Source: a virus | DNA length: 64,000 bases | Virus record (IMG/VR): IMGVR_UViG_3300031992_000044 | Strand: one strand, 5' to 3' | Shown here: piece after piece, positions 1 through 59,185 of the stretch | How positions within the stretch are numbered: the stretch's first letter is position 1 | Layout: each line of letters begins with the position of its first letter | Program-made: the position numbers and the translations under genes | The notes under the pieces: model-generated | Database searches by the model: none | Told to the model about the DNA's origin: nothing | What the model saw: the letters and a program-made list of their open reading frames with translations, nothing else

Positions 1-1
1 A

Positions 2-1252: not shown

Positions 1253-1271
1253 ATCAGTCATTGCAAAGATT

Positions 1272-6207: not shown

Positions 6208-7982
6208 CAAAGAAAGATTATAAATTTATAAATAATACAGGACAGTTGCCTGGATTTTCTGGCGGATTAACATCTTCGGATGATTATCAGAATAATATTA
6301 TGTAGTGGATGGACAATCTACAACAATATAATTCTGGAAATAAAAATGTAGCTGGGGCAGTAGATACCTCGATTTTACCAACACGTGGAAACTTTGATAC
6401 TGCAGGAATGAGCGCAGCCGGACAACTTGCATCAAGAAAGGATATTCCGTATTAGAGCACAGAAACAAAAAATATAGCAAAAGGTATAAACGTTGGTAAT
6501 ATACAAACAGCAGCGTCTGCTGCACCAGGACTGATTGGAAGTTTACATAACAGTTGGACAAACTACGATAGTGTAAATGATATAGAAGCTCAATATAAAC
6601 CTACATCTGCTACAACTGCGGGTATTGGATGGACAAAAATGGTAAAAGCCAAAGATGGCAAGTTGCCTGGATATAAAGGAGGTGCATTAGGAAATATAGC
6701 TGGTGCAACGGCGTCTGGAGCTGCGATGGGTTCTGTTGCAGGACCATGGGGTGCTGTTGTCGGTGGTGCTGTCGGTTTGATTGGTAGTGGCATAGGTGAA
6801 ATATTTAGTGAAGATACACAAAGGGAGAATGAAAGAATTGCTAGATAGAATATAATACTTCGCAATAATAATGAACGAAGTGGAGCGATTAGTACTTCTA
6901 TGTAGTTAAATAATGCTATAAAATACGGCGATCAATATTCTCAACCATTATTTGGTCATGCTAATGGAAAACTTCCTAAGTTTGATATAGGAAAAGTATC
7001 AACATCGTTTGGTTAGGCTTTAGGAGAAGCTACAGCACGTGTATCTAACGGAGAAGTTATAGCTAACAAATATACAGGTACAATGTATAGAGTTCCCGGC
7101 TTAAAGAACAACAAAGATGGGAAACTTGCTTCTCTTAGTGATAGTGATACTGTTATTACAAACAAACATGGACTTTCTGATTATGCTTGGCGTACTGGAG
7201 ATATAGAAGGTGCTGAGGAAATGATGAAGATGTTTGGCAATCCTGCATATAAAAACGGAAGGCTTCCGAAATGTGCAGAAGGTTGGTTGGGCAATGCGAT
7301 ACCTTCGGCATTAGGAAGTATAGCAAGCCTCGCGCAATATATTGATGCTAAGAACAGTACGCCATATTATCCGCATACATATGTTGCTAATCCGTACGAA
7401 TTACAAGGTCTTACTACACTTGCTGGGCTTAGAATTAATCCTTATCCTATTACACAACAACTACGTAATGCAGAAGCTAGAACCAATAGAGCTATTGATA
7501 TCGCAGGAGGATTGAGTGGTAGTCAACGTACAGCAGCTAGATTAGCCAATCTTAATACTACACAGAACAATATATCTAACCTTTTGTCTAATATACAGCA
7601 GCAGAATAATGCTTATAGAGCTAGCTATGCTCAGGCTGCTATTAATGCAGGACAAGCATCTAGACAGGCTAGAATGGCTGCTAATCAGTGGGATCTCGAT
7701 ATGTACTCTAAAGCACATGCTGCACGTAATAGAGGTATACAAACAGGTATAGCTAACATGCTTAGTCAAATACAGCAATATCAAGCTAATGAGTTCAAGC
7801 GTAGACAGTTCAATGAGACTATGGATTTGTATAGAGACGATATGAACATGCGTAAATAGAATATGCAGTGGTTACAGAGTCAGCCTTCGCGCGGAATTGG
7901 TTTGGATATAGCAGCTTATGATAACACAAGGCCGTTATATTAGTACGATGAAAACGGAAATCTTAAGAGAGTTAGATCATGA
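6198..7982 (+). CDS. virion internal/tail-associated protein with a Gly/Ala-rich hydrophobic segment, TAG-recoded
   Basis: ATG at 6198 overlaps the previous stop. Frame 3 runs to TGA 7980-7982 with 7 in-frame TAGs, joining ORFs 6639-6848 and 7083-7859. Glycine-zipper-like GGALGNIAGATASGAAMGSVAGPWGAVVGGAVGLIGSGIG. Confidence 0.6.
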
Positions 7983-9742
7983 CATACGCATATGATGATT
8001 ATGTACAAATGCCTACTAAGGATTTGTACGATACAGCAGTAATGAAGATGGCCATTGAAGCAGCTAAAGATATGTATGATAAAGGCTAGGCTTAGATGGA
8101 GAACTTCTATAAGACATATGGAGATTTTATGAGTCCTTTTGCAGCAGATATGCAGAAGTATGGCGCAGCTATGGACTATGTGCGTAAGACGGTAAACGAT
8201 GCTTATGCTAGAGGTATTGACCTGTTTAAGAGTCCAGAAGGTCGGGCTATAGTAGCGCAGTTGAGTCATTCTATAGATCCAGGTTGGTATAATAGAGCAA
8301 GAGCCAATGCTAAAGTTGGTTATGCATATCTTGATTCTCTTAAAGAAGCTATGAAGAATGGTACGTACGACAGAGACTTTTAGAACTTTGTATTAAGTAA
8401 AGAGAATGGAGGTCCTGGAACATTCGAAGATTTCTCTAGTGACAACGGTATGTGGAATATATCTGGCGTATCTAAGTTTCAAGATCTTAATCAATGGACA
8501 CACCATTTGTTTGATAACATGCAGCTTACGTATGACCCCGAACTCAGCAAGGCCACTCCTGGATTCTTAGCATATAGTAAGAATAAAGATGTAATGAATC
8601 AAATTGCTGCTAACAATATGGCTACTCTTGCTAATACTGATATGGGCAAATATATGATAGACAGATACGCTCAGCAGTTTAAAGCTAGAGGATACAGTGA
8701 TGACAAAGCATTAGAAGCTGCATTTGATATGTTACAAAGAAATATTGTTAATGCTAATTATGAGCAATCTCAAGTTAAACTTGAACAAGATCCTTATGCA
8801 TACTTACAGCAAAGTAAAGCTGCTGATCTTGAGAACTTCCGTTAGAAGGAACTCATAAAACAACAAATAACAATGGATCTTAATGGCGATGGTGTAGTTA
8901 GTGATGAAGAGCGAGAACTTTACTATGGAGCTTTAAAAAAACAGTTAGAAGGAGATACTAAGGAGCCTGTACCAAATGGTACTTCTGATCAACTTGCAAA
9001 TGAGCAAATTTTAAGAACTCAGAATCGTAGAAACGAGGCTTTAAAAGGTGTAAAGACAAAAGAAGACCTTAAGAAAGCTCAAGAGAAATGGTATAGAGAA
9101 AACTCTACCGGCGGAATGGTTGGAAGAACTCCTACTTCTTCAAAGCCCTCTACTGAAGCTGAGTTGAGAAGAAACTCCGAAGATATCTTTAAAAGAAACA
9201 ATGTTGTTACTTTGTAGCAAGGTCAACAGGAAGATATGAACTCACTGCTTGCTCATAAAACAGATCCTAATACAGGTGAAGTTTACAATTATGTTGATCA
9301 TACAGTAGATTTTAGGCCAAACGTAGTTGCTTCTATGACAGGAAATAGAGTTTATACATATAACAGTGTTGTAAACAAAGTATCTAGAGCAATTAAAGGA
9401 AAGAAATATACAGTTCCTGCAGGAGAGATTAACAGAGAGTACGCAAGCGGAACTCGTAATAAGAAACGAGTAAATGTAATAAACGAAACTGTTATCTTCA
9501 AAGATAAAGATGTTGTTGAAAAGCTTGACAAAATTAATGAAGATACATTAAACAGTTTCGGTATAGAAAAATTGGAAGATGGTTACAAGATACCTATAAG
9601 TCATACTTTCAATGCGAATAGCATTGCAGCAGCTGCTGTCAATAGTGCTACAGATAAACGGGTAGCTGGTCAGTCTGAAGCTGCAAAAAGACAAGCAAAT
9701 AGACAGGCTAGAGCATACACAGGAATGGTAGAAAATAAATAA
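7979..9742 (+). CDS. virion internal (cargo-like) protein, TAG-recoded
   Basis: ATGA overlap with the previous gene at 7979-7982. Frame 2 runs to TAA 9740-9742 with 5 in-frame TAGs, joining ORFs 8096-8383, 8450-8845, 8873-9217 and 9236-9742. Confidence 0.6.
8876..8911 (+). other. EF-hand / dockerin-like Ca-binding loop DLNGDGVVSDEE
   Basis: The 12 residues fit D-x-[DN]-x-[DN]-G-x-[IV]-x-x-x-E exactly. Single copy. Confidence 0.4.
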
Positions 9743-9750
9743 TATCAATC

Positions 9751-12700
9751 ATGCCAAAGAAACGCAAAAATAGTAAAAACACGAAATCGTATTATGATCC
9801 AAATCTTGAAAAAGGATACGCCATAATGCGTGATCCACAAGGATTTTAGGATCTTGGCGACGCACTTACGCTGCACGATCGAGAAATAGAAAAATTGATA
9901 GATTCTGAGGTTGAAAAATACAACCAACAGAATGCCGAAGAGATTGAGTGGGAAAGAAAGAAACAAGAAGAAAATATAGAATCAGAGGATGAATCACAGT
10001 TGATAAAACGCAATCAACGTTCTTTATTAGGACAGCTCGCTGATGCATCTCGCGATCCCTTTGCTGGGGGATCTCCGGAAATGCTATCTTTTTCTGATAG
10101 ATTAGGAAGAGCATACGGTCATGTATAGGCCGGAGATATTCCGGGGCTGCCAGAAAATTATAACCTTGGAGATTTCTTTAAAGACCAATGGAACTCGTTC
10201 TTTGGCGAAATGAACAAACTCTAGGCAGAAGATGCCAGAGGTTACCAAGTGCGAGCAGAAAACGATAAGAATCTCATAAAAGACTACATGGATTCTTTAG
10301 ATAAGCTCGACGAAATAGACTATATTGATAAAGAGCTACAAAATATTAACAGTTTGATTCAGCAGCCAGATATGACTGCTGGTCAGATTGCTAATCTTAA
10401 AGGAGAACGTGCAAAAATGCTCTCTGATATAGAAAGACTTAAAAGAGAGTACGATGCCCTTGCTCCAAGTAGATCAATGTTGGAAGATATGACTGACCAG
10501 TCTAAGCTTGGCGCTTGGGTTGACGGTTCTATGTCAGGCAATGAAATATTTGGAAGCGGAGATTGGTGGAATCTGGCTGGTAGAACTACAGCAGGTCACG
10601 ATTAGATGAATGATGCTCGTCGGTTCTTGTACAATCTCAAAGATGGCAATCTTGATAGAAATTAGAAGAGATAGGCTTTGTCTCGTGCTTACAAAGAGTA
10701 TGGTAAGCTTAATGAAGACTGGAATGCCATCATAGAAGAGAATGAGAATGAAGCTCAGAAGCACAACGATAAGATATCTAAATGGTTCCAAGGTAGAGCT
10801 GAGAAAGCTGGTATAAACTTCACTGATCCAGACACATACTTGTTTAAGATGCCTGGAATCATGGGCGGATCTGCTAGTTCTTATATGAAGCAAGTTCCTG
10901 CTATGCTTGCTGGTATAGTGGGTGGTGCTGTTGGAGCTAGTCTTGTTGGAGCTGGAGCTCTTGGTACTTCTGCAGCACTTGCTGCGACTGCTACTGGTGC
11001 GGGTACATCTTTTGCATTTAATAGAGCTGCTGGTATATCAGAAAATAACGCGGAAGTTGCTCTTGCTACTATTGAGAAAGTAAAAGAGCGTACTGGACTT
11101 GAGGAAGATGATATCAAAAAAATATTGTCTGGCGAAATGACAGATCCAGCCAAGCTTAGAAAGATTACGGAGAATATACACAACGTAGAGAATCTATTCC
11201 AACAAGATATGGCAGCTACCACATGGGATGCTGCTGTAGACGCTATGCTCATGGCTGTTCCTATCGGCTTTATGTCAAGTTTAGGCAAATACCTTAAAGG
11301 TACAAAGGCTGTAGAAAAGCTTATGGAGAAAGCGGGAACTAAAGCTGCTTTAGCTGAGCGTTTCGGTAAAGACTTTGTGCAAGGGTGGGACGCTGGTAGT
11401 CTAGCTAGTCCTCTGGCAGGCGTAGGCGCTGGTTTAGCAAACGCTACGATCGGTAGAGGCGTAAGAGCCGGTGTATCGAAAGTAAAGAATATACTCGTAC
11501 GAAAGCTTGACGACACGTTTGACGGTGCACTTATTCACGATCTTGTTCGTAATACTGAGAAAGTAGCAGAATCAGTAGGTAAACTAAATCCCACTAGAAT
11601 CGCAGCAGAACAAGCTGCTCAGAAAGGCCTTCTTGCTCAGTATATGAAAGGTATTGGTGGAAAAACCATTAAATCTACTATTGCTGAAGGTATTGAAGAA
11701 GGTAAGCAGCACGTAAATGCAGAAGCCTTTAAGAACGATTTATCAGATCCTAAGCTTAAGAGTACCATGGAAGTTGCGTTCGACGATATGATGAACGGAC
11801 TTACTATGGGCGCTTATGTTATGGGTATACCTCTCGATGGTCTTGGGATTATAAACATCAAGGATCAAGATCTTCTTCAAGAGATAAAAGGAGGTATGCT
11901 TGGTGGATGGGGTCAAACTGCTACCGTGTCTGTCGTCCAGTCCACTCTTCCTTACGTTAGACAGAAGAGTGCTCTTTCTGCTGCTGTAGAACAAATATAC
12001 GCAGACAAGTTGTCTTCTACTGCTATGATGAAGCAGTATAAGTATTGGCTTCAGAAAGGTTTGATGAAGCCGACGCAGAACGATATGAATGTAGCGTTCA
12101 ACATGTTGCGCAAAACCAACGACGATTATGAGAAGACAAATGGTGCTACTGCAATTGCTCCAAACTTGATAGATGAAGCGCAAAGGCAATATAATCATGT
12201 TATGTCTGTTGCACAGAATCCTCTTACTAGAAAGATGGCGGAGGATGCTGGAATAAAAGTACGTTCTTGGAATAATCCTTCTTCGTGGAGAAGTAATGAG
12301 GAATACTATAATTTTGTAGCAGCGAAAGTAGCAGCAGAAGATCGAATCGGAGAAGTTGTTCAGAATCTCAATAATGCTGATTATAAGCTTCAACAAGAAA
12401 GAATGCGAGTACAGCAAGAGTTGACACGTGGGGAAAGCGATATACAAAGTCAATTAGGACAGTTACAGCGTGAACGTGCTTCTTTATCTGGATGGCAGAG
12501 TACAGATGAAATGCCGTACAGTAATGAAGAGGATTCTATACGCGAAGATACTGCTACAGAATCACAAAACGACTTTATTTATACTGACGAAATAGCACAA
12601 CTTGCGGCATTATATAAGTATCGCGAGCAGATAGAACGCGGTATAGAAGCATAGAAAGGTAGTAAGTATGTAAAAGTGTCTCGTGGCCTAAAGAGTGAAC

Positions 12701-15700
12701 TGAAGTGGATAAACAAGCAGATTGATAACTTTACAAAAGAACACAGCAATATACAAGAGTTATCAAATACACTTAACAATGGCAAAAGTATAAATACTTT
12801 GCAAGATTTGGAGGACCATCTTGTATACAATCAAGATCAACACGAACGTCTTTCTGAAGCTTATTTGGATGTATTAAAATGGCAAAGCGAGCGTAATACA
12901 GTAGAAGTTGCAAATAGAGAACTTACTGGTACTCTTAAATATGTAGATAATGACGGTAAGATAACAACTCCTCCCGCAGATTGGGATCCTATACATAATG
13001 CAAGCGATTTGAAGCATGTTAAATATGAAGGAAGTAAAGCGCAAGATATGATGCTGCGAATGCATTCTGTATGGGATGAAGATGACGCTTTTGAACAGGC
13101 TGTAGAAACAGTATACCAAGAAGACCTTAAAGCTCAACATCTTAATGATCAAAATGCTATAGAAAACCCGTATGAGATTGATCCAAACAGAGAAAAGATT
13201 CCTGTAAAGGATGCTAACGGTAATCAAATATAGGTTCAGTTTGACGAGCAAGGTAGAATAAACAGAAAACTTGCTGACAATGAAACTATCGACGATCAAG
13301 GAATGCTATGGCAGTACAAAGATCATCGTACAGATAATCCTGTCAATCGTATAAATCATTCTGCTCCTACCACAGAACAGCAGCAAGAGGCCGATAGAAT
13401 AGCCTTTAGAGAAGCTTGGAATAACATCAATGGACAGCCATTACCACTTACTCCAGAAGGCATGGTAGAACGCCGTCAGAGAGCTTTATTTGAGGCAGCT
13501 AGAGCAAGAGGAAGCTGGGACGTAGAAAACCCGCCACAGAGCTCTAAAAAGGCATATACGAAGCCATCTAGTACCGTTTATACAGTAGATAAATTTGGTT
13601 TTGTTGCATATGAACAACCAGAAGAAGATTCTCAAGATACTGTACTCAACGATATTGAGCGTAGATTCTACGAAGATAAGTAGACGGTTTAGAATGATCC
13701 AAATGGTTATCATACTACAAGCCAGGATTACTTTATTCTACAAGATGGTAAAGTTGTAAGAGCGTCTCGTGTGCACAATGTCAAACCAGAAGCATATATA
13801 CACGAAGATCAAGAAAAGGAAGTAGAATCTATATATAAAGATTTGCTGTCTGCTACTTCGTTACAAGAATTTCTTGAAAAGATACCTGAGAACATCGGAT
13901 CTTCTGAAAATATAAGTAAGGTTGATCCGTATGCTATTTATATTACAGAAAACGAAGATATATTCTTTAACAATCCGTCTGCAGAAACAAAGCGCGAATA
14001 CGACAATACGTTACGTCATCTTGCTCAAGCAATCGTTGATGCTAATCGAAATAGTTCCGTATCAATACTGGTAGGTAACATAGTAGATGAGATATCTAGA
14101 AACTTCTTTGGTTCTGACGTTTTGTACAACTCTACATAGACAGAAGAAGGTATAAAAGCTTTATTCAACTCTAAGAATGAAAGCGATTGGCGTACATACA
14201 ACGAATTGTATAGAGGAAATTATGACGCATTTGCTTCGTTGATTCGCTCTTTACGAGGAATGTACGAGTATTATACCAATACGCTTGGTTGGAAGTTGAC
14301 AACTTTGCCATTTACTATTCGTGCACAGTTTAATGATCTTGGATGGGTTGCTGGCCAGCCTGATATGATTGGTATAGATAAAAACGGTCGTGTACATATC
14401 ATAGACTTTAAAACGTCTAAATATACATTTGGATCTGTATTAACACCCAATATCCAACTTACTCAGGATTATCAGAACGACCTCAAGTTACTAAAGAATG
14501 AAGACTTCTACAGTCCTGACGGATTCGAGCGTAAGAGTATTAAAGCTAGGCGTATTCTTAGATCTATAAAGAACGATGGTTATAAGAATATAGATATACA
14601 GTGGGATGGAAATAGAGCCGTTATATCCAATAAGACTAAGCCGTTCCATAGTCTTCCTAATCAGTCATATGGTTAGCAAATATCTGCATATGAAGATTAT
14701 AGCAACCAGCTTACTGCTTATGCAGAAATGTTGAAAGCTAATGGATTCGATGTCGCTTCTATAGAGATTCTTCCTTTTAAAGTATCATACGACTATGAGT
14801 TTACAGAGCCTGGAAAAGGCATTGTTCGTATACAGATGGAAGATCGTACTCCATTGACATTTAGCTCCAGTATGAAGAGTATACTTGATGGAGTAGAGAC
14901 TAGAGAAGATCAAGTTATTAATAAGGCTCAAGAAGACTTACATAACAATATTGGTAATCTTCAATACAGAATAGATAATCTAGTAGAGAAGATCTCTGAC
15001 GAAGTGTTCAATGAGCTTTCTGATCAAGGAAAACTGTTATATTCTGACTTCATCGCAGAGGCTAGAAACGCATTATATGAGGCAGAAAATGTACTGTACG
15101 AGAACAACTCAAGGGATCTAGATGTTCTAAATGCTCAAAACGACGCCATAGAGGACATTTTGAGCCGTTTTGACGCGTTTTTAAAGGATCTACGAGAAGA
15201 TTATAATCAGGCTCGCTCAAAGGCCGCTCAGCAGGCTGAAAATGAGTCTAAACGCGACCAATAGAAGCGTAGAGAATCTCAAGATGATGATCAGCCTGCA
15301 AATGGCATTATTTAGGCTCCAAACAAGCGGGATAGTGCTGGTAATACTACTAGATCTAATCTTGACTATAGACGTGTAAATAGTGATCCTGAGCTTACTA
15401 GAGCTACAATGGCTCCTAACTTTATAGACGACGCCGATATTACTCTGTACGTAGAAGGAGATGATATATATGCAGACATACAATTCCAAGGTCACATTTG
15501 GTAGCGTGTTCCTATTGATACTAAATACAACGATACGTGGATACCAAACAGTAAAAAACTGCACGATGACATAGAAAGAATGCAGCGAGAACATCCAGGA
15601 GCTCGTATAGTACCTGTAAAAGCTACCATGACCCGTACTGCAGGAAGACCTAATCTTCTTGTTAAAGATAGACATCTTGTGTATTAGGATGTTAGAAATA

Positions 15701-40133: not shown

Positions 40134-41999
40134 CTAAAATAACTCTAGTTGCTGTTCAGTGAAGTCGGCAACTATCTTTTTGGCTTCACTGATATAGTAA
40201 CGATAGTTAATCTTTCGATCTTCTATCGGTAGATCATCAAACTTATTCAGGATAGTAACTCCTGATTTTGTTAGCATATTTGCTTTTTCTCTTGTACTTT
40301 CTGGATCATACTTAAATAAATATTTTCCATCTGTACTTGCGTAGAATCTGTTAATCCGTTGTATCTTCTGTTCTCCATGATACACTTCAAACTTCTTATC
40401 AACGGCTTGAGACACGAGGAAATCGCGTATGTCTCTATCGTTCTTAATGAACTCTTCAATAGATTCTCCAGTAGTAAAGTAGTTTATCACAGCCTTTGGA
40501 ATAACCACAGGCGAAAGTCCTTTGCCTAACTTTGTTTCAGTAATAAACATACCTTTTTCTTCTATCTCTCCGCCTTTCAAGACACCAAAGTAGTCATTGA
40601 TTGCGTATTGATAGAATGCTTCGTACTCATCAGTCTCGAATTCTAGACGCGTAAGTTTTTCAACCTCGGCAATAGCGTCTAAAATAGCCTGTTTAAAGCA
40701 CTTTTTAGCCCTGTAGACGACACCATCGGTGTTACACTGAATAATTTCACACCCAAGGTCTAAAAGCCTGTCTACGAGCAAAAGAAGTATTAACTGGCCA
40801 TTAATTCTTATCTTAAAGACATTGAAAGGATCATACATCCAACTTACTTCCTGCTGCATTTTACCAGTAGGAGAATTGAGCACAATCTTCAGAAACTTAT
40901 TCTTTGTAGTCTGACCTGTACGTTTTGCTTCTAGTCTTTCGACTTTCAATCCGGCAAATAGATCGCAAAATAGTTTTCTCAAGTGACGAGGTCCAAATTG
41001 ATATTCTATCAATAAAGACGGGTACATCGACGCCACATCTGCGTGCCCTATAAACTCGTCATCAGCTGGGAGGAATATCTTTGGTGTATGAATAGTATGA
41101 ATACCACCAACACCAATAGAATATACCACATTCGAGAGAACAAACTTCTTCTCGTAGCCTTTTCGCTCCTTAGAGTAAACTACCTGTTTCTTCATTTCCT
41201 CTAAGACGCTCTGTAACTTTGGATTTTTATATGATATAAATGGCAGTATGACATCCTTCAATGGAATATAATCCATCGGGGAACGCATTTCCTTTATTAC
41301 ATTTTTAGGAATACCTGACTTCTCTGAATATTTTTCGAGTAGAAAGGTCTCTGCCATTTTAACAGAATCCATTGATAAACAATCAATTCCGTGTTCTTCT
41401 TGTATGAAGAGTCTGAGTTCTATGTCTTTCTTCAACCGGTTTAATAACTCTGTGGTTGATTCTACATCATTGATATTATAGCCAATCATATTGTCTATTT
41501 GGTCTACTGGTATAGGCTCTTCGAAGTTTCCTTCATATTCATAGACATTACGATAATGCATTGTCACCTGCATGCTTTTAAGACCAACTCGTAGTTTCTG
41601 ACTGAACATCATGGTTAGTAAGTCCATCGATTGAAAGTAATGTGCATACTTCCATCGTTTGAACTTATCTATATTCCCATCTTCTGCATTCACAATAGTT
41701 TGTGAGAGATTAAACAGAGATAAGCATATTCTCCAAAATGGAAGTTGATCCATCTTGTAAAACATATCAATCATATAATTTACTATAACATCATCATAAT
41801 GATGATTATTATATCCACAGAACATTTTGTCTTTGGAGTCATAGTAAAAGAAATCAACCAGTTGTTTTAGCTGGTTGACTCTCTCACTAATTTCGAATTT
41901 ATATAATTGATTAGTCTCTGTATCTTTACACACGCAATGGAAGCAGTTGGGAAATACTTCTATGTCGTATGTTACGACCGTTGCATTGCGTATAATCAT
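40134..41999 (-). CDS. family B DNA polymerase
   Basis: Exo I YDIEV, Exo II YNNHHYDDVIV, Exo III YNINDVEST, motif A DVASMYPSLL (DxxSLYPS), motif B KIVLNSPTGK, motif C CNTDGV. It ends in tandem stops TAG-TAA. Confidence 0.8.
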   Translation of the reverse strand: MIIRNATVVTYDIEVFPNCFHCVCKDTETNQLYKFEISERVNQLKQLVDFFYYDSKDKMFCGYNNHHYDDVIVNYMIDMFYKMDQLPFWRICLSLFNLSQTIVNAEDGNIDKFKRWKYAHYFQSMDLLTMMFSQKLRVGLKSMQVTMHYRNVYEYEGNFEEPIPVDQIDNMIGYNINDVESTTELLNRLKKDIELRLFIQEEHGIDCLSMDSVKMAETFLLEKYSEKSGIPKNVIKEMRSPMDYIPLKDVILPFISYKNPKLQSVLEEMKKQVVYSKERKGYEKKFVLSNVVYSIGVGGIHTIHTPKIFLPADDEFIGHADVASMYPSLLIEYQFGPRHLRKLFCDLFAGLKVERLEAKRTGQTTKNKFLKIVLNSPTGKMQQEVSWMYDPFNVFKIRINGQLILLLLVDRLLDLGCEIIQCNTDGVVYRAKKCFKQAILDAIAEVEKLTRLEFETDEYEAFYQYAINDYFGVLKGGEIEEKGMFITETKLGKGLSPVVIPKAVINYFTTGESIEEFIKNDRDIRDFLVSQAVDKKFEVYHGEQKIQRINRFYASTDGKYLFKYDPESTREKANMLTKSGVTILNKFDDLPIEDRKINYRYYISEAKKIVADFTEQQLELF

Positions 42000-42025
42000 G
42001 ACTCAAAGGTTCTAAAGATTAATTG

Positions 42026-44068: not shown

Positions 44069-44117
44069 TTTGATAACAGTTTAGAGGGTTTGACATATTT
44101 TTGGGAAAATACATTTG

Positions 44118-44188
44118 TTGGGTCACACGGATTCGAACCATGACTAAGGGAACCAAAATCCCTTGTGCCGCCATTACACCATAACCCA
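44118..44188 (-). tRNA. tRNA-Gln (anticodon UUG)
   Basis: Minus strand: TGGGTTA TG GTGT AATGGCG GCAC A AGGGA TTTTGGT TCCCT TAGT CATGG TTCGAAT CCGTG TGACCCA A. All four arms are canonical. Confidence 0.8.
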
Positions 44189-45584: not shown

Positions 45585-46253
45585 TTACTCAGCGCCGCTA
45601 GTAGCCGATACTTCAACCATAGCACTCACGTCACCCTTCAGGATGTCACGGAAGTCTACGGTCTCTATCTTGGTCTCCTGGAGCTCCTTGGCGAACTTCT
45701 GAGCCTTCTTGGTGTTGTCATTGATGGCACCAATCAGATTCTGCTTAATACTATTCAAAGCCTTAATAAGGGCCTCAACAGCGTTGAGCTCTGACTTGTT
45801 GGCATCGTTGATAACAGTAGCTACTGCTACGGGGTTGAGGAAGAAATTCTCGCCTTCACCCTTGAGGGCGTCAGCTATTGCCTCGGGAGTACCCTTCACC
45901 AGGTTGAATATGTCCTTGTTGAGGGGGAAGAACTGATCGAATGTTCCGTCCTGACGGAGGTTGATTGCGATACCCATCTCACCAGTGACAGGACGCTGAT
46001 AATACTGAGCGCCGAAGATATCGACGTCCTTCAGCATATACTTGTTAATCTTGCGGTTGGGGATCAACATGGTGGAGAGACCGTTACGAACTTTCTCGTT
46101 GTCGGCATCCCAGCCCTGATCGCCACCCTGCCAGGTGTTACGAGATTCTACCTTGTGGTAAGCCTGGCCTACCAACGAACCAACCATAGATCCGATGCCG
46201 CGACTTGTAGGAATTGCAGCCTGGATATTAATGTCAATGTTTTTTGTTTCCAT
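45585..46253 (-). CDS. hypothetical protein (GC3-rich)
   Basis: 222-aa ORF with visibly G/C-ending codons, unlike its neighbours. Confidence 0.6.
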   Translation of the reverse strand: METKNIDINIQAAIPTSRGIGSMVGSLVGQAYHKVESRNTWQGGDQGWDADNEKVRNGLSTMLIPNRKINKYMLKDVDIFGAQYYQRPVTGEMGIAINLRQDGTFDQFFPLNKDIFNLVKGTPEAIADALKGEGENFFLNPVAVATVINDANKSELNAVEALIKALNSIKQNLIGAINDNTKKAQKFAKELQETKIETVDFRDILKGDVSAMVEVSATSGAE

Positions 46254-46362
46254 TTTTTTTCTTATCCTTTTTGATATCGTTATTGATTAACTAACGATAA
46301 GAATTAATATTTCCTCCACTTATGGCGGGAGGGTAACCTTTGAGTTTGAAAATGTGGCGTTC

Positions 46363-46376
46363 TGGCTCAAAGGCTC
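46363..46376. repeat. TGGCTCAAAGGCTC motif copy (family shared with 56.3-56.6 kb)
   Basis: Exact 14-mer, enclosed by the 5-bp stem CGTTC/GAACG, about 100 nt upstream (minus sense) of the ATG at 46253. Confidence 0.7.
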
Positions 46377-47022
46377 TACGAACGTTTATCTTTAGATCTT
46401 TTAATGTTAATATCTTTATGCGTGCTCACGAGAGCAATCTTTTTTCATCCAATAGGATCTTCCAGCTAGATAAATTACGTAGCACGAACACTATTTCATT
46501 TATCGGGGACTCAGCGATAGAGTCAGCCATGCCCATCATTAGAAGATTGTTGTATTTTCTGTAAAAGTACAAAAAGTGATATATTGTAACCAAACATAAG
46601 ATCCATTGAGATTATGTTAATAAATAATTTACATGCACTGAATGTTTTCAACACTATTCGTTGGCAGCATTTCACAAGGACTACTGTTCGTAGAATATGC
46701 TTACTAAACCCAGCGGCATTTAACCAACAAAAATTGTGTAATTCTTCCTAGCGTATTTTCCCGTTTTGCTTGGAATCCTTACCATGTTTCTGAATATTTA
46801 ACGAGACTAACAGCAACATTAACGTTCTCGTCCACGCTCAGCATAAGGCATCTCATGCGTAGACATGTTTTATTATCGGAATGGTCTAGAGCTCCAGAAC
46901 TCATTATGGACCTACGGTTTTTTGTTGTACATTCAGCTTTACTGCTGTCTTCTGTTTATAGTGCGCGAATACTGGAGGAATTCCACCTCATACGCTATAA
47001 GATTTATCACCCACCTAAAGAT

Positions 47023-47307
47023 TCACTTTGTCGAACTCTCCTTCAATTTCCTCAAAAGGTATGGATCTCCGGTTTGCTTTACCCCTCCGAGACAGGGAGG
47101 TGATTTCATTTCACGATAGGCTGCCTTACATCGTTTACGTATATTGACTTTATACTTTCTACCCACATAGATTTGCTGTCTATGCTTCGCTTCGTTGCGT
47201 ATTCTGTCTACTTGCTTCTCAGGAACGGTTGGCACTCGATTTCTTGGCGTGAAAGCACCCACAAGCGTTACAAACGGGGTCTTTATCTTCTCCCAGCCAA
47301 GGGACAT
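47023..47307 (-). CDS. small highly basic protein inside the large non-coding region, uncertain
   Basis: 94-aa ORF (RKYKVNIRKRCKAAYREMK). It is the only sizeable ORF in about 2.1 kb. Confidence 0.35.
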   Translation of the reverse strand: MSLGWEKIKTPFVTLVGAFTPRNRVPTVPEKQVDRIRNEAKHRQQIYVGRKYKVNIRKRCKAAYREMKSPPCLGGVKQTGDPYLLRKLKESSTK

Positions 47308-48369
47308 CTATTAGATTTAACAATATATTTAATGTAACGATATTTTCATAAGCCTTATCTTAGAATCAAGTTATGCCGCACATAAGTTTACTACTCTCAC
47401 TGATATAGTATAACAGGTTCAGGTCTTATTATCTTTTGCATTACACGAGCGATCTCCTTCTGTACTGGATGTACAGTTCTCGAATCGACCCTATCTCACT
47501 ATAAAATAACTTGGGTTTGACTGTCAGGTTGTCATCCTTCGACTCCAGCATTTCCTCTGGTACATCTCCAATCTATATTACTTAACTATCGCTTATCATA
47601 GTCTTTCATACCTTTTGAATAGTCTTTCACCCCGGACTTCACTCGGGTAGCATTCAGTCCTCTAGGACTATACTCCGCATTATGTGGCGCATCCACATGT
47701 GGTCATTTACTTTTAGCACGAATCAATTCCACGTGTCTTATACCGCTTGAACGACCAAAGCCTGGCGGTCACCTTCATCATATTTTTCTCAGTACCCCAT
47801 CCCCGGCACCCCTTCAACGGAGTCGTGCTGAATCGAACAGCAAGGACTTCTCCAAGGAACGTAGTTACGGTACGTCGCAGACAGTTAAACCTTCTGCTAG
47901 GCTCATATACTCCAGTAGTTTTCATCCCTTCATACACGCTGTGGAGGCGTGGAACACTAGACTACAGCTTAATTTGTGATACATCCGTATACTCTTTGGA
48001 TTAGTATACGCTGCAACTCGTGTAACGTGATTCTAGGTCTATGTAATCTCTCGAAACCTAGATCTATCGATACGGTTCGTTTTGCGCTTCTTGCGACTTA
48101 TGTGTCTTCTCTTGACTACCCTCACCAGACGGTTCTCAGGGACCAGAATAGGGTTGATACAACGCTCTCCCTAATATCCACAAGCTTTTCACACTTGCGA
48201 TCTTCCATCCTACCTTTTGAGTTTCTCACCCGTTGAGCGGGCTAACATATTCTCGGATCAAGTAAATTTGCGTACACGGCTAATGAGACCGTTGCCTTAG
48301 CTGTACTGACGTGCTGCCAAACTGGCTGGGGGATACAGGCAGTGTCCCATATCCCCCGCACCGGAGTGA

Positions 48370-48828
48370 TTATCGCTTATAGACTTCCTCACCGTCGACA
48401 ATGAGGATAATGGACTCTTTAGGAGATCCAATAGTGTCTGCGGGATTCTCCTCTCGACCCGCACCGAAGTTGTTTACAACAGGTGGATCAGGTAAGATAG
48501 CTGGAATGCTATCGCCTAAACGTTTCTCTGTTGCACGTGCAGGCTTCGGCGCCCGTACGTATTTTATTTTATACACAATACTGTCTCTATAAACAGTATC
48601 GGGTACTGTAGTATTGCCAAGACATTCTTGACAAGTAGTATCTTTCTCCAAATTCAATTGGAGATCAAGAGGCAGCTTTCCGTACTTATTTGGAGCCCAA
48701 TTAAGTACAGGTGCTGCGCTCGCAGACTTATAGTCTGTGCTATCGTCATGCGAGGGCGCGTATATGGCCAATCCAGTTCCGCCAATGGCAAATAGGATGG
48801 CGCATATAATGGTTGTTATATGTCTCAT
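48370..48828 (-). CDS. membrane-anchored or secreted protein
   Basis: N-terminal hydrophobic helix ITTIICAILFAIGGTGLAIYA. Confidence 0.6.
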   Translation of the reverse strand: MRHITTIICAILFAIGGTGLAIYAPSHDDSTDYKSASAAPVLNWAPNKYGKLPLDLQLNLEKDTTCQECLGNTTVPDTVYRDSIVYKIKYVRAPKPARATEKRLGDSIPAILPDPPVVNNFGAGREENPADTIGSPKESIILIVDGEEVYKR

Positions 48829-48925
48829 CTTTGATAGAATTAACTTTACAACTCTGTTTGCAGGAGTTTGTCCAGCAATGACCTTGTTTTACTTCCGAAG
48901 CGCACTAAGTACCCATTGCTGGACT

Positions 48926-50394: not shown

Positions 50395-50790
50395 TCATGA
50401 TGTATTGAAGGGTGTAGGTGGATTAGCTAAAACGTGAATTGTTGGTTGGTCACGACTTCCGTTCGTGACATTAACAGTAGTGAATCCTTTTGCAATTAGA
50501 GGCATTTGTGCCTGACTCACAGGTTCTGAAGTTGCCTTCTTGGGTGCTTTAGCTGTGTCACCAGGAAGCATATAAAATGTCCCTGGATAACTCGGCAAAG
50601 CCTCCTGTGTGGGCGATACCTGAATGCATTTAGACTCACTCTGCTCGGTAGAACGCACTACCATTGTCGTCACTGCATAACCTAAGGTCCATGCGGTGAA
50701 GAATATCCAGAAGAGTTTGTTACTCTCATTGTACTTAGCTAAACCAAGTATAATGAGAACTCCGAGGATATACAGAGCTAATGTCATCAT
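50395..50790 (-). CDS. two-TM membrane protein translationally coupled to the sigma factor
   Basis: ATGA overlap with the sigma gene stop. LALYILGVLIILGLA and LFWIFFTAWTLGYAVTTMVV helices. Confidence 0.6.
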   Translation of the reverse strand: MMTLALYILGVLIILGLAKYNESNKLFWIFFTAWTLGYAVTTMVVRSTEQSESKCIQVSPTQEALPSYPGTFYMLPGDTAKAPKKATSEPVSQAQMPLIAKGFTTVNVTNGSRDQPTIHVLANPPTPFNTS

Positions 50791-51362
50791 GTTGTTTTAA
50801 TTTTTAAATGTTTTTGAATTCGCTTTCGAGTCCTTGATAACGTCGACTTTATAGTTCCTGTTGGGATATTCAAGGCCTCACTAATCTGTTCTACTGTCAT
50901 ATTATCTTCGTAGAATAACCTAAGAACCTTACGATTGGTCTCAGATAATTTGTCGAATTCCGTCAGTAAAGATTCATAAGTCATACGATTGATTATTTCC
51001 TCTTCAGCTGAAACATTAGTATCATCTGATGGTATTTTACCATCCGACTGCCCTAGTGCTACTTTACGGTTTTCCATTCTACGTAGATAATCGATAGCAG
51101 TTCGATTAGCTATAATTCGCAGCCAACCCCCGAAGGAGTCGTATTCTGTGAATGTCGAGAGTTTATCATACACTTTAAGAAATACTATGTTGGTGAGGTC
51201 TTTAGCCTCGTCCATGTCTTTAATATACTGAAATAGTATATTATCTACAAAGCTTTTATACTTGTAGAAAAGTGTATTAAAAGCAGATTCATCACCTGCT
51301 TGCGCCTTTTTGATTATCCCAACCTCTTCTGAGGTGATTCTAGGATTCTGTGGCATAATCAA
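50787..51362 (-). CDS. ECF-type (sigma-70 family group 4) RNA polymerase sigma factor
   Basis: Region 2: FNTLFYKYKSFVDNILFQYIKDMDEAKDLTNIVFLKVYD ... GWLRIIANRTAIDYLRR. Region 4 HTH: RKVLRLFYEDNMTVEQISEALNIPTGTIKSTLSRTRKRI. Confidence 0.8.
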   Translation of the reverse strand: MIMPQNPRITSEEVGIIKKAQAGDESAFNTLFYKYKSFVDNILFQYIKDMDEAKDLTNIVFLKVYDKLSTFTEYDSFGGWLRIIANRTAIDYLRRMENRKVALGQSDGKIPSDDTNVSAEEEIINRMTYESLLTEFDKLSETNRKVLRLFYEDNMTVEQISEALNIPTGTIKSTLSRTRKRIQKHLKIKTT

Positions 51363-52393: not shown

Positions 52394-52407
52394 TTGATAT
52401 GTTTTTG

Positions 52408-52481
52408 TGGTCCTTGTTGGGCTTGAACCAACGACCCCCACCTTATAAGGGTGGTGCTCTAACCAACTGAGCTAAAGGACT
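52408..52481 (-). tRNA. tRNA-Ile (anticodon UAU)
   Basis: Minus strand: AGTCCTT TA GCTC AGTTGGTTA GAGC A CCACC CTTATAA GGTGG GGGTC GTTGG TTCAAGC CCAAC AAGGACC A. The only irregularity is an A1:C72 mismatch. Confidence 0.75.
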
Positions 52482-55762: not shown

Positions 55763-55833
55763 TAGCGAGTGTGGGACTCGAACCCACCAGTTTACAGATT
55801 TACTGAAACTTACCGACTGCGAACAGACTCGCT
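55763..55833 (-). ncRNA. tRNA-like element with extended anticodon-arm hairpin
   Basis: Minus strand: AGCGAGT ... AGTTT-CAG-TAAAT-CTG-T-AAACT G GTGGG TTCGAGT CCCAC ACTCGCT A. The 7-bp acceptor and T arm are perfect. There is no proper D stem, and the anticodon arm is an 8-bp stem with a 5-nt loop. Confidence 0.45.
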
Positions 55834-55861
55834 CCACCCACTTAGGTAGGGTTCACCGACT

Positions 55862-55973
55862 TCACGCTGCCTCCTTGAGACCCGTGTAGTCAACGATATT
55901 ATAATCGCCGTTTAAATTTATATCAAAGCGTTTAATGTCTTACTTTCCACTGCTGTCAAATCCAGTCAGGCCC
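55862..55973 (-). ncRNA. ssrA-like: tmRNA-like coding piece (5' acceptor strand, D-loop analogue, P2a, candidate tag frame)
   Basis: Minus strand from 55973: GGGCCUG A CUGGAUUUGAC AGCAG ... Then the frame GGC GAU UAU AAU AUC GUU GAC UAC ACG GGU CUC AAG GAG GCA GCG UGA (55909 to 55862) gives GDYNIVDYTGLKEAA. Confidence 0.5.
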
Positions 55974-56061
55974 ATAATGCCCACATACGGCCTACGAGTG
56001 GGCTGCGCAGATAGTCACCCCTTATTCGCTCTATGTGACAGATAAAACTTGGGACTTGCCG

Positions 56062-56096
56062 TGGACCTGGAGGGATTCGAACCCTCGTCCAACAGC
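56062..56096 (-). ncRNA. ssrA-like: tmRNA-like acceptor piece (P2b, T arm, 3' acceptor strand, discriminator A)
   Basis: Minus strand: GCUGU UGGAC GAGGG UUCGAAU CCCUC CAGGUCC A. The 3' strand pairs with GGGCCUG at 55973-55967, giving G3:U70. Confidence 0.55.
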
Positions 56097-56289
56097 TCAT
56101 TCTGGGACACGCTAAGATTCTTGTGTAGAACGTTCTGATGATCGGTCAAAACATTCAATTTAAGGCTATTTTCAGGCTCTCTGAGACGTTTTCTAGGCTT
56201 TTGTGGGTAGCTATTCCACTCAAGCTTTAAAATGGCTTAGAAAGGCTTATTTTAGCCTTAAATAAAGGTTGAATACGTTGGTCTACCAC

Positions 56290-56587
56290 TGGCTCGAAGG
56301 CTCACAATAGGGCGTATTCGCATTCTTGAAACTGTTTTACAGCAAAAGCTGACTCTATGGTTCAGTAAAACTCATAGTTCTTGATCTAATGCCCACATAT
56401 TATTACACCGTGTGGACGGTGGTATCACCCCGTGGCACTGGCTCAAAGGCTCGGACCTAGATTGCGAGTGTCGCTCCCTGTCGGACTGAATATAGTTAAT
56501 ATAAAGGCGAACTTCAGAAACTATATTATTACCGATCTTCTATAACGTATTCTGCTTTCTTTTTATAGAGTATTGGCTCAAAGGCTC
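56290..56587. repeat. three copies of TGGCTC(A/G)AAGGCTC
   Basis: Copies at 56290-56303 (G variant), 56439-56452 and 56574-56587. Copies 1 and 3 are enclosed by different stems (GAATACG/CGTATTC and AGAGT/ACTCT). Confidence 0.75.
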
Positions 56588-58577: not shown

Positions 58578-58601
58578 AATTGTAAATATTGGTGAGTTTT
58601 G

Positions 58602-58672
58602 TAGTCTCTAGGAGAGTCGAACTCCTCTTCTAACAATGAAAATGTTATGTCCTACCGATAGACGAAGAGACC
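58602..58672 (-). tRNA. tRNA-Glu (anticodon UUC)
   Basis: Minus strand: GGTCTCT TC GTCT ATCGGTA GGAC A TAACA TTTTCAT TGTTA GAAG AGGAG TTCGACT CTCCT AGAGACT A. Confidence 0.75.
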
Positions 58673-58993: not shown

Positions 58994-59110
58994 ATGTAAT
59001 GAACACTTTCATTTAAATAACTTAAATAAACATTAAAAGTACTATGAAAATAAACCTTTAACACATTATTAATTTATCAATTAAGAAATGTCACACGCTT
59101 CACAGCGTTG

Positions 59111-59185
59111 TGTGGGAGAATGGATTCCAACCACTACCTACAGATGCAGAATCTGTCGCTCTGATGGTTATTAAGCTACTCCCAC
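59111..59185 (-). tRNA. atypical tRNA-Gln (anticodon CUG)
   Basis: Minus strand: GTGGGAG TA GCTT AATAACCATCA GAGC G ACAGA TTCTGCA TCTGT AGGT AGTGG TTGGAAT CCATT CTCCCAC A. All stems pair. The D loop lacks GG, the T loop is TTGGAAT, and position 37 is C. Confidence 0.6.

What the first reader, a model, noticed from the sequence alone, without database searches (positions are those of the whole stretch)
46254..48369. About 2.1 kb ORF-poor, hairpin-dense region with one small basic ORF: candidate large structured RNA(s)
Between genes 45585-46253 and 48370-48828, neither strand has a consistent reading frame under either code. The listed ORFs overlap each other in different frames, and the minus-strand ones end in TAA or TGA, so TAG read-through does not merge them. 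The sequence is visibly more G+C-rich than the flanks. It contains many local stems, for example GGGGGATA/TATCCCCC at 48328-48357 and GACTC/GAGTC at about 46507-46525. It also has a duplicated GAAAGACTAT at about 47.60-47.63 kb and one copy of the TGGCTCAAAGGCTC element. The only plausible protein is the 94-aa highly basic ORF 47023-47307, which could be an RNA-binding partner. Large ornate RNAs such as GOLLD and ROOL are known to sit in phage genomes near tRNA genes, and self-splicing introns are common in crAss-like phages. I cannot assign this region to any known class by eye.
Basis: partly seen in the sequence, partly recalled or inferred. Interest (0 to 1): 0.6.

Follow-up and report, generated by a model that had tools for sequence, protein, structure and literature searches.

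The report
Giant structured RNA gene, crAss-like phage
The 2.1-kb protein-free stretch of this gut crAss-like phage encodes a very large folded RNA (or a tight string of them) that the whole phage family keeps at the same spot and that matches no catalogued RNA family; what it does is unknown.

Summary
The stretch 46254-48369 has no usable reading frame: all six frames carry all three stop codons. The same 2.0-2.5 kb gap lies between the same two genes in 29 non-redundant relatives from three subfamilies of Suoliviridae (delta crAss-like phages).

The gap is better conserved in nucleotides (54-63% identity) than the genes beside it (42-46%). Read on the window's minus strand, it holds about 55 predicted helices, and 34 of them show compensatory base changes. 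Column shuffles give 0-4 such helices and the flanking coding sequence gives none.

A covariance model of the 5' domain finds exactly one copy in every relative. It finds none in Steigviridae, in Intestiviridae or in unrelated phages. Rfam 15 has no match, and I found no paper describing this RNA.

Three of its side claims are not:
- The 94-aa basic ORF is not conserved.
- The region is not richer in G+C than its immediate flanks.
- The window's own sequence folds no better than shuffled sequence.

Expression could not be tested. This scan has already flagged the same family on other genomes.

The parts
46254..48369 (-). Whole ORF-free conserved element: gene for a giant structured noncoding RNA, or a tight array of RNA domains. 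The sense strand is the window's minus strand.
   Evidence: Stops of all three kinds in all six frames. A syntenic gap of 1974-2504 nt in 29 non-redundant relatives. RNAalifold gives -304 kcal/mol against -26 to -43 in shuffles, and 34 of 55 helices have at least 2 covarying pairs. Each of the five 430-nt chunks holds 3-10 supported helices. G-U cells outnumber A-C cells 218 to 119 in pairs that are mostly Watson-Crick.
48328..48357 (-). First hairpin just after the stop codon of the upstream gene (GGGGGAUAU...AUCCCCC). It may be the terminator of the 152-aa gene or the 5'-terminal stem of the RNA.
   Evidence: Sequence read. Relatives carry a hairpin of different sequence at the same place (alignment A2). 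No U-run follows it.
48094..48274 (-). 5' domain ('domain A', model R1). It holds helix P1 (48261-48255 with 48210-48204), hairpin P2 with loop CUCAA (48242-48228), a hairpin with a GUGAAAA loop (48199-48179), hairpin P4 (AGGG 48172-48169 with CCCU 48153-48150), a pseudoknot and hairpin P5. In the pseudoknot, GCGU in the P4 loop (48165-48162) pairs with ACAC (48105-48102). P5 carries the invariant UGAGAACCGUCUGGUGA (48142-48119).
   Evidence: CM R1 scores 170 bits (E = 4e-41) here and finds one copy in each of 29 relatives. 88% of cells are paired against 71% shuffled, 26 of 35 pairs have double changes, and the slid controls score 0.04-0.10 against 0.438. The pseudoknot pair at columns 232/400 shows CG 14, GC 5, AU 4 and UA 4, and it was not part of the model, so its support is independent of the model fit.
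47770..47970 (-). Central domain with five or more covarying hairpins. One has a CCGUAAC loop (47875-47859). Another is T-arm-like, UGCUG-UUCGAUU-CAGCA (47842-47826).
   Evidence: fold_alignment on 18 sequences: 24 predicted pairs, 19 with compensatory double changes. Helix list.
47224..47237 (-). Near-invariant motif GAGUGCCAACCGUU. It is one of three conserved AACCGU-containing motifs; the others are at 48138-48122 and about 48078-48068.
   Evidence: Conserved anchor blocks of the 29-sequence alignment.
46949..46989 (-). Conserved block GAGGUGGAAUUCCUCCAGUAUUCGCGCACUAUAAACA inside a domain closed by helix gap 1355-1363 with 1402-1410.
   Evidence: Anchor blocks, helices, blastn conservation out to Loutivirinae.
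46270..46575 (-). AT-rich 3' part. It holds a domain of about 190 nt closed by a covarying helix, hairpin 46524-46508, hairpin 46436-46423, the motif hairpin, and a near-invariant terminal hairpin UUAUCGUUAG...AACGAUA (46300-46275) that ends 21 nt before the ATG of the 222-aa gene.
   Evidence: fold_alignment on 16 sequences: 25 pairs, 14 with double changes. Helices. The block 46270-46299 is 91% conserved.
46363..46376 (-). GAGCCUUUGAGCCA: two direct pentamers displayed in the loop of a covarying hairpin. It is one of five copies on this strand of the window. It may be a processing, protein-binding or promoter signal, and it may mark the 3' limit of the RNA proper.
   Evidence: 5 copies against 0.3 expected. 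Sequence contexts. Within each relative all copies carry the same pentamer: GTATC 8 times in cr7_1, and GAGCC/GAGTC/GAACC in the others.
47023..47307 (-). 94-aa basic ORF. Judged a chance ORF, not a gene.
   Evidence: No ORF of 80 aa or more at the homologous place in any of 28 relatives, including L005 at 87% identity. No Pfam or PHROG hit. It overlaps covarying helices.

Best explanation
The stretch is a gene on the window's minus strand for a very large, intricately folded noncoding RNA. It belongs to a previously uncatalogued family specific to the Suoliviridae (delta crAss-like phages).

Shown:
- A 2.0-2.5 kb protein-free locus sits at a fixed place between the ECF-sigma-factor module and the DNA-polymerase module.
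- It is conserved more strongly than the proteins beside it.
- It folds into roughly 50-60 helices grouped in five or more local domains. These include a pseudoknot, GNRA-type loops and a T-arm-like hairpin.
- The helices are maintained by compensatory substitutions, down to the 13% divergence between the window and its nearest relative.
- G-U pairs are tolerated far more often than A-C. That pattern means the selection acts on an RNA of this strand.

Inferred, not shown:
- The RNA is transcribed together with the neighbouring same-strand replication and regulation genes.
- It folds as it is made, and it acts as a stable stand-alone RNA, either a scaffold or part of a ribonucleoprotein, rather than as a leader for one gene. 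The nearest precedents are the abundant early long noncoding RNAs of the crAss-like phage phi14:2 and the GOLLD and ROOL RNAs of other phages.
- Its likely field of action is host or phage RNA metabolism or translation, because it shares the arm with tRNAs, a phage tmRNA and a repeated RNA or DNA signal.

I cannot tell whether it is one 2-kb molecule or is cut into pieces.
For: - No frame.
- Synteny: cr272_1, cr130_1, cr131_1, cr7_1, cr124_1, cr52_1, Bohxovirus and cr10_1 all have an unannotated gap of 2.0-2.4 kb between the same genes. An IMG/VR pattern scan gave more than 100 contigs, which reduce to 29 representatives below 93% identity.
- Conservation: gap identity is 0.54-0.63 against 0.42-0.46 in the flanking coding sequence.
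- Structure in the 18-sequence subfamily: consensus energy -304 against -26 to -43 in shuffles; 34 supported helices against 0-4; 147 covarying pairs against 9-21. 90.3% of cells are paired against 35-44% when partners are slid. The flanking coding controls give 0 supported helices.
- A second subfamily of 8 sequences gives -526 against -262 to -280, and 35 supported helices against 7-10.
- Tool-based checks: domain A with its pseudoknot; central domain; 3' part.
- Strand: sense -304 against antisense -269. G-U 218 against A-C 119.
- Recent evolution: between the window and L005, 46 pairs changed. 27 still pair in both, and 14 of those changed on both sides.
- Copy number and range: one R1 hit per genome. 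Hits in Boorivirinae and Loutivirinae at E = 1e-10 to 1e-26. No hit above noise in 4 Steigviridae, 1 Intestiviridae and 2 unrelated phages.
- No Rfam family in the window or in 6 relatives.
- Precedent for expressed long ncRNAs in a crAss-like phage: bioRxiv 10.1101/2020.03.07.982082.
Against: - No expression data.
- The window's own sequence is not thermodynamically unusual (z = -0.25).
- RNAalifold rewards covariation, so its helix counts are partly circular. I relied on controls rather than on an R-scape-type test.
- No covarying helix ties the 5' and 3' ends together. The longest well-supported closures span about 125 nt (gap 1803-1807 with 1927-1931, three covarying pairs). The longer predicted closures, up to about 365 nt, carry one covarying pair or none.
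- No sigma-70-like promoter or intrinsic terminator stands out on the sense strand.
- The function is entirely inferred from context.
- Between the window and L005, paired positions change no more slowly than unpaired ones (0.141 against 0.119).
Confidence: 0.8

Rival explanations
1. The gap is not one RNA but a head-to-tail array of several independent structured RNAs of roughly 150-400 nt each. They would be made from separate promoters or cut out of one precursor, much as the tRNA-like elements and tmRNA pieces elsewhere on this arm appear to be.
For: All well-supported helices are local. Domains close within about 125 nt where the closing helix covaries, and no covarying helix joins the ends. 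Each 430-nt chunk folds on its own. A repeated signal (GAGCCUUUGAGCCA) that also occurs three times in the tmRNA region lies inside the gap.
Against: The order, number and spacing of the conserved blocks are fixed in all 29 relatives, and total length stays within 1974-2504 nt. No relative has lost, duplicated or moved a module, and domain A occurs once per genome. Only one copy of the candidate processing motif lies in the gap, near its 3' end. No internal promoter- or terminator-like signal recurs on the sense strand.
Confidence: 0.25
2. The region is a cis-acting part of an mRNA: a giant structured 3' UTR of the 152-aa gene or 5' leader of the 222-aa operon. It would control transcription read-through (for example protection from Rho) or translation of the downstream genes, and would have no role of its own in trans.
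For: It lies on the same strand as both neighbours, with no recognisable promoter or terminator of its own. The best-conserved short block is the hairpin 21 nt before the downstream ATG (46300-46275). Synteny with the same two genes never breaks.
Against: As far as I know, no described bacterial or phage leader approaches 2 kb with about 50 conserved helices. The sequence is conserved much better than the genes it would regulate. Conservation is strongest 1.8-2.0 kb away from the downstream start codon.
Confidence: 0.1
3. The conservation serves a DNA-level function, such as a replication origin or a packaging or recombination site, and the hairpins form in single-stranded DNA.
For: The region lies in the replication-gene arm. 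Inverted repeats are present.
Against: There are no iterons or repeat families and no inflection of cumulative GC skew. G-U is tolerated about twice as often as A-C, so the pairing is selected on one strand only. GNRA-type loops, a pseudoknot and a T-loop-like hairpin are RNA motifs. The structure runs the whole 2 kb rather than sitting in a compact core.
Confidence: 0.04
4. It is a decayed or cryptically coded protein gene: a pseudogene, a gene broken by introns, or a gene read under an unusual code or with frameshifts.
For: This phage reads TAG as an amino acid in some genes, and delta crAss-like phages carry group I introns (PMC7886860). Some relatives have annotated ORFs in the gap (cr7_1 gp52, Bohxovirus _00150, cr10_1 gp22).
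Against: All three stop codons occur in every frame, in every relative. The annotated ORFs are antisense. One contains stops under table 11, and the other is absent from a relative whose gap is 88% identical. There are no intron or other Rfam hits. A pseudogene would not be conserved better than the live genes beside it, nor show compensatory pair changes.
Confidence: 0.02

Closest known systems
GOLLD (Rfam RF01998) and ROOL (RF03087), large 'ornate' noncoding RNAs of phages and prophages (structures in PMC12286853)
   Same: Large, multi-domain RNAs with no coding capacity, carried by phages. They are often found near tRNA genes, are conserved by covariation, and have no known function.
   Different: No sequence or structure homology: cmscan against all of Rfam 15 gives no hit in the window or in six relatives. 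By my recollection GOLLD is about 800 nt and ROOL about 580 nt, so this locus is roughly 2.5 to 4 times longer. It is restricted to one crAss-like family. Whether it forms multimeric cages is untested.
Abundant early long noncoding RNAs of the crAss-like Cellulophaga phage phi14:2 (intergenic regions g004-g006; Drobysheva et al., bioRxiv 10.1101/2020.03.07.982082)
   Same: A kilobase-scale ORF-free region among the early, replication-side genes of a Crassvirales phage, on the same strand as its neighbours. In phi14:2 these regions are transcribed above most protein genes from the earliest time point, and the RNA persists. phi14:2 has a 1.7-kb ORF-free stretch at 2905-4601.
   Different: No detectable homology. 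The domain A model finds nothing in the phi14:2 intergenic regions, and its only weak hit (18 bits) lies inside a coding gene. The phage family (Steigviridae) and the neighbouring genes differ. The phi14:2 RNAs have expression data but no published structure. This RNA has structural evidence but no expression data.
OLE RNA (Rfam RF01071) and other large bacterial ncRNAs such as raiA and MISL
   Same: Highly structured RNAs of several hundred nucleotides whose biochemical role is unknown or only partly known.
   Different: Those are chromosomal genes of bacteria. By my recollection OLE has dedicated protein partners encoded next to it, whereas here the neighbouring proteins match no known family. 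There is no Rfam match.
Short candidate structured RNAs predicted in IMG/VR phage contigs (PMC10690425)
   Same: The same data source and the same covariation-based logic. Pieces of this locus may be among those 8,495 candidates.
   Different: Those motifs average 67 nt. The paper does not mention crAss-like phages or a kilobase-scale RNA.

Membership tests
Any Rfam 15 family (including GOLLD, ROOL, OLE, HEARO, group I and II introns, RNase P, 6S, tmRNA, rRNA) | Score at or above the family's gathering threshold against its covariance model | tested here: not met
   cmscan of the whole window finds only 4 tRNAs and a permuted tmRNA, all outside the gap. A permissive scan of 45800-48900 gives one PrrF hit of 20.6 bits against a 90-bit threshold, E = 2.3. 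Six diverse relatives have no hit on the RNA's strand inside their gaps; the only hit there is a chance-level snoU83 match on the antisense strand of L003, 27.9 bits against a 50-bit threshold, E = 2.
Self-splicing intron (group I or II) | Interrupts a host gene whose exons join into one reading frame; catalytic core (P3-P9, or domain V) present | tested here: not met
   Both flanking ORFs are complete, with their own start and stop, in all relatives. There are no intron-model hits even at E up to 10.
New family proposed here: Suoliviridae giant RNA | Syntenic ORF-free gap of 2.0-2.5 kb between the 152-aa-like and 222-aa-like genes, downstream of the ECF sigma factor gene | tested here: met
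   Window and annotated relatives.
New family proposed here: Suoliviridae giant RNA | Domain A with the invariant UGAGAACCGUYUGGWGA hairpin, the GUGAAAA-loop hairpin and the P4-loop pseudoknot (model R1) | tested here: met
   170 bits, E = 4e-41 at 48094-48274 (-). Covariation statistics.
New family proposed here: Suoliviridae giant RNA | Transcribed as a stable RNA | not testable with these tools
No transcriptome of a Suoliviridae phage was found in the literature.
phi14:2-type early long noncoding RNAs of crAss-like phages | Homology to the phi14:2 intergenic RNAs | tested here: not met
   R1 gives no hit in L121, phi14:2 1-14000. The best whole-genome hit is 18 bits inside CDS g112. Only domain A was tested.
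phi14:2-type early long noncoding RNAs of crAss-like phages | High, early and persistent transcription of a long ORF-free region on the early strand | not testable with these tools
   No reads were available.

The most novel reading that the evidence does not exclude
The whole locus is one RNA of about 2.1 kb (2.0-2.5 kb across the family) with a defined three-dimensional architecture. As far as I know that would make it the largest structured noncoding RNA outside ribosomal RNA in any phage or bacterium. It would be made in quantity by one of the commonest phage families of the human gut, and would act as an RNA machine or scaffold (for example a cage, or a hub for host translation or RNA-decay factors) with no known counterpart.
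Probability: 0.4. Interest if true: 0.92.

Novelty: new variant of a known kind. Interest (0 to 1): 0.8.

Why it matters
[quoted passage not shown] Every sampled member spends about 2% of its genome on this RNA and conserves it better than the neighbouring proteins, so the RNA is very likely important to the infection cycle.

It would add a new and unusually large class to the short list of 'ornate' RNAs, whose architectures have recently proved surprising (PMC12286853). About 30 diverse sequences are already in hand, and many more sit in public contigs. That is enough to make the family directly usable for covariation modelling, cryo-EM and chemical probing.

Practically, it also corrects database annotation. 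Several RefSeq and GenBank records carry spurious ORFs over it, and gene callers leave an unexplained hole there.

Tried and rejected
- Metagenome contigs: the scan returned many more contigs that carry the RNA (11 of 28 tested). Sample types are not given, so this says nothing about expression. Short contigs end inside the RNA, not at its borders.
- Flanking-protein route to relatives: single-protein scans found only 1-4 loci. The alignment of 222-aa homologues was too divergent to scan with. The DNA pattern from the RNA itself worked.
- Protein partner: Pfam and PHROGs give nothing for the 94-aa ORF or for the 152-, 222-, 197-, 482-, 180- and 131-aa neighbours. Only the 191-aa ECF sigma factor is recognisable. 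The ESM Atlas look-up of the two flanking proteins gave only unnamed clusters at scores below 0.9. I ran no structure or complex prediction, because adjacency alone did not justify it.
- RNAalifold on MAFFT alignments of all 29 sequences recovers few helices, because the arms of variable hairpins are misaligned. Subfamily alignments and CM realignment were needed.
- Single-sequence folding energy does not discriminate.
- Homology to the phi14:2 lncRNAs, or to other crAss families, through domain A: none found.
- Antisense ORFs annotated in relatives are spurious.
- Literature: searches for a described Suoliviridae or crAss noncoding RNA of this size found nothing.
- Promoter and terminator consensus scan: nothing on the sense strand. 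The two terminator-like hits are on the opposite strand.
Full report
WHAT THE WINDOW IS. The window comes from a complete 104.6-kb phage genome with direct terminal repeats. Its closest named relatives are crAss-like phages of the family Suoliviridae, subfamily Oafivirinae (cr272_1, cr273_1, cr130_1, cr131_1, cr7_1, cr124_1 and Bohxovirus). From about 31.5 kb onward the genes run on the minus strand. The stretch in question lies there, downstream of an ECF-type sigma factor gene (50787-51362). The same arm carries tRNA genes and a permuted tmRNA.

CHECK OF THE OBSERVATION. The stretch 46254-48369 is bounded by ORFs 45585-46253 and 48370-48828, both on the minus strand. Every one of the six frames contains TAA, TAG and TGA, so no single reassignment opens a frame.

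Two descriptive claims do not hold.
- The region is 41.6% GC, and only 34.6% in its last 550 nt. That is below its immediate flanks (47.9% and 45.4%), although above the window mean of 38%.
- Its predicted folding energy is ordinary. The first 1000 nt give -277.6 kcal/mol, against -275.2 +/- 9.5 for dinucleotide shuffles (z = -0.25). Hairpins seen by eye are therefore not evidence in themselves.

THE GAP IS CONSERVED AND SYNTENIC. In every annotated relative the same pair of genes flanks an unannotated 2.0-2.4 kb gap, downstream of the sigma factor gene. This holds for cr272_1, cr130_1, cr131_1, cr7_1, cr124_1 and Bohxovirus (Oafivirinae), cr52_1 (Loutivirinae) and cr10_1 (Boorivirinae).

A 17-nt pattern taken from the most conserved block retrieved more than 100 IMG/VR contigs. 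I removed five chance matches that fell inside coding sequence and dereplicated the rest at 93% identity. That left 29 representatives, with gaps of 1974-2504 nt.

None of them has a sense-strand ORF of 80 aa or more that is shared. The 94-aa basic ORF of the window is missing even from L005, whose gap is 87% identical. The longest sense stop-free runs have a median of 67 codons, the same as shuffled sequence. ORFs annotated in three records lie on the antisense strand. One has internal stops, and another is absent from a relative whose gap is 88% identical.

The gap is more conserved at the nucleotide level (mean pairwise identity 0.54-0.63 along its length) than the flanking protein-coding sequence (0.42-0.46).

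THE CONSERVATION IS STRUCTURAL, AND ON THE MINUS STRAND. Compensatory changes are visible by eye in the alignments. One hairpin reads CCG/CGG, CCU/AGG, CUU/AAG, GCU/AGC and ACU/AGU in different phages. Others carry a constant GUGAAAA loop, or UGAGAACCGUCUGGUGA, on stems that change completely.

Quantitatively, for 18 Oafivirinae-like sequences:
- RNAalifold gives -304 kcal/mol and 55 helices.
- 34 of those helices have at least 2 covarying pairs and at least 80% pairing. In all, 147 of 265 pairs covary.
- Eight column shuffles of the same alignment give -26 to -43 kcal/mol, 0-4 such helices and 9-21 covarying pairs.
- Sliding every 3' partner by 1-3 columns drops pairing from 90.3% to 35-44%.
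- The same pipeline on the flanking coding sequence of the same phages gives -3 kcal/mol and no supported helix. Each of the five 430-nt chunks of the gap gives 3-10.
- An independent subfamily of 8 Loutivirinae-like sequences gives -526 against -262 to -280, and 35 supported helices against 7-10.

The sense strand folds better than the antisense (-304 against -269). In pairs that are mostly Watson-Crick, G-U exceptions outnumber A-C exceptions 218 to 119. This is the asymmetry expected if selection acts on an RNA of this strand.

Even between the window and L005, 46 predicted pairs differ. 27 still pair in both, and 14 of those changed on both sides.

DOMAIN-LEVEL CONFIRMATION WITH THE DEDICATED TOOLS. 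I built a covariance model, R1, with 182 positions and 31 pairs, from the 5' domain.
- It scores 170 bits at 48094-48274 (-) and finds one copy in each of the 29 representatives, at E from 1e-10 to 4e-41. It finds exactly one copy in the whole genome.
- On the resulting alignment, 88% of cells pair against 71% in shuffles. 26 of 35 pairs show double changes. The covariation score is 0.438 against 0.159, reached by 0 of 500 shuffles, and against 0.04-0.10 for slid partners.
- A four-pair pseudoknot joins the loop of hairpin P4 to a segment 60 nt downstream. It was not part of the model, yet one of its pairs shows CG, GC, AU and UA in 14, 5, 4 and 4 sequences. The window's own copy has a C-A mismatch at that pair.
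- fold_alignment on the central 200 nt gives 24 pairs, 19 with double changes, including a T-arm-like hairpin UGCUG-UUCGAUU-CAGCA.
- On the AT-rich last 300 nt it gives 25 pairs, 14 with double changes.

The structure therefore runs the whole length of the gap.

RANGE. R1 also hits two Boorivirinae genomes (E = 2e-10 and 9e-19) and a second Loutivirinae genome (1e-26). In cr10_1, the Boorivirinae genome whose annotation I checked, the hit lies in the syntenic gap. In four Steigviridae (including phi14:2) and one Intestiviridae the best hits are 10-18 bits. That is no better than in an unrelated Providencia phage, and where I checked, the hits lie in or at the edge of coding genes. Metagenome contigs add further carriers.

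COMPARISON WITH WHAT IS KNOWN. Rfam 15 has no match at gathering scores, and nothing beyond single chance-level hits at permissive thresholds, in the window or in six diverse relatives. That excludes GOLLD, ROOL, OLE, HEARO, introns, RNase P, 6S and rRNA as homologues.

The flanking genes are complete, so the region is not an intron. There are no iterons and no skew inflection, and the strand asymmetry argues against a DNA-level element.

In the literature I found no description of a kilobase-scale noncoding RNA in Suoliviridae. The large survey of structured RNAs in IMG/VR reports motifs averaging 67 nt and does not mention crAss-like phages.

The nearest experimental precedent is phi14:2. 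There, two long intergenic regions among the early genes are transcribed above most protein genes, from the earliest time point, and persist. The authors call them long noncoding RNAs of unknown function. phi14:2 does have a 1.7-kb ORF-free stretch, but I detect no homology to domain A.

HOW IT PROBABLY WORKS. What is shown is a conserved, strand-specific, multi-domain RNA fold of 2.0-2.5 kb at a fixed locus. The rest is inference. It is probably transcribed with its same-strand neighbours, since no promoter or terminator of its own is recognisable. It probably acts as a stable RNA in trans, because its conservation exceeds that of the adjacent genes and peaks about 2 kb away from the next start codon.

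Its company suggests a role in RNA metabolism or translation. That company is tRNAs, a phage tmRNA, tRNA-like hairpins and a repeated signal. This last step is a guess.

Whether it is one molecule is open. All well-supported helices are local, and none ties the ends together. On the other hand, the order and spacing of the domains never vary.

A RELATED SIGNAL. It occurs five times on this strand of the window, against 0.3 expected. One copy lies in the gap, three in the tmRNA region, and a variant abuts a start codon. In the gap it sits in the loop of a hairpin whose stem covaries.

In relatives the pentamer differs, but all copies within one genome share it. cr7_1 has GTATC-NNN-GTATC eight times, while cr272_1 and Bohxovirus have GAGCC, GAGTC or GAACC. 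That pattern points to a phage-specific factor that recognises the site, whether for processing, protein binding or promoter use. I did not resolve which.

RELATION TO EARLIER NOTES OF THIS SCAN. The same family has been flagged before on other genomes (e1-3088070, e1-4711993 and e1-3752157). Those are unreviewed AI notes. Everything claimed here rests on the calls cited.

VERDICT. This is a real, conserved, uncatalogued and very large structured RNA locus. Expression, molecular ends and function remain to be shown.

Noticed in passing
window 46363-46376, 56290-56303, 56439-56452, 56574-56587, 41999-42012 (all read on the minus strand): A 14-nt element made of two direct pentamers 3 nt apart (GAGCCTTTGAGCCA). 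It has 5 copies against 0.3 expected, all on the early-gene strand, in ORF-free RNA regions or at a start codon. In relatives all copies within a genome share a different pentamer (cr7_1: GTATC-NNN-GTATC, 8 copies). This suggests a phage-specific trans factor acting in processing, protein binding or promoter use.
   Followed up: partly
L010:5310-5792 (cr7_1 gp52), L003:4407-4913 (Bohxovirus ECCNAKDA_00150), NC_055875.1 20963-21148 (cr10_1 gp22): Public records annotate 'hypothetical protein' ORFs inside the homologous RNA gaps. The two I translated (cr7_1 gp52 and Bohxovirus _00150) are antisense to the RNA; one has internal stops under table 11 and the other is missing from a relative whose gap is 88% identical. 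cr10_1 gp22 is a 61-aa ORF on the gene strand that overlaps the domain A match. All three look like spurious calls.
   Followed up: partly
window 45585-46253 and 48370-48828, and their homologues: The two genes that always flank the RNA evolve faster than the RNA: 18-30% amino-acid identity between genera for the 222-aa protein, and 42-46% nucleotide identity. They match no Pfam, PHROG or named Atlas family.
   Followed up: partly
L029:224-389: A distant relative carries a strong RAGATH-22 RNA match (RF03098, 193 bits against a 120-bit threshold) just upstream of its permuted tmRNA gene. The window itself has no such hit.
   Followed up: no
window 55771-56151 (-), 44117-44188, 52407-52481, 58601-58672, 59110-59185: The same arm carries a permuted tmRNA gene (Rfam RF04321, 49 bits) and four tRNA genes (Gln-UUG, Ile-UAU, Glu-UUC, Gln-CUG).
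   Followed up: no
L121:2905-4601 and L121:1279-1983 (Cellulophaga phage phi14:2): These are the ORF-free stretches that correspond to the published, highly expressed early long noncoding RNAs of phi14:2. RefSeq removed eight small ORFs from the larger stretch in 2020. No structural analysis of them seems to be published, so they would be worth the same covariation treatment.
   Followed up: no
window 47842-47826 (-): A hairpin with a 5-bp stem and the loop UUCGAUU, which by my recollection matches the tRNA T-loop consensus. It lies inside the RNA and its stem covaries. It may be a T-loop tertiary module, and it is similar to tRNA-like pieces noted elsewhere on this arm.
   Followed up: partly
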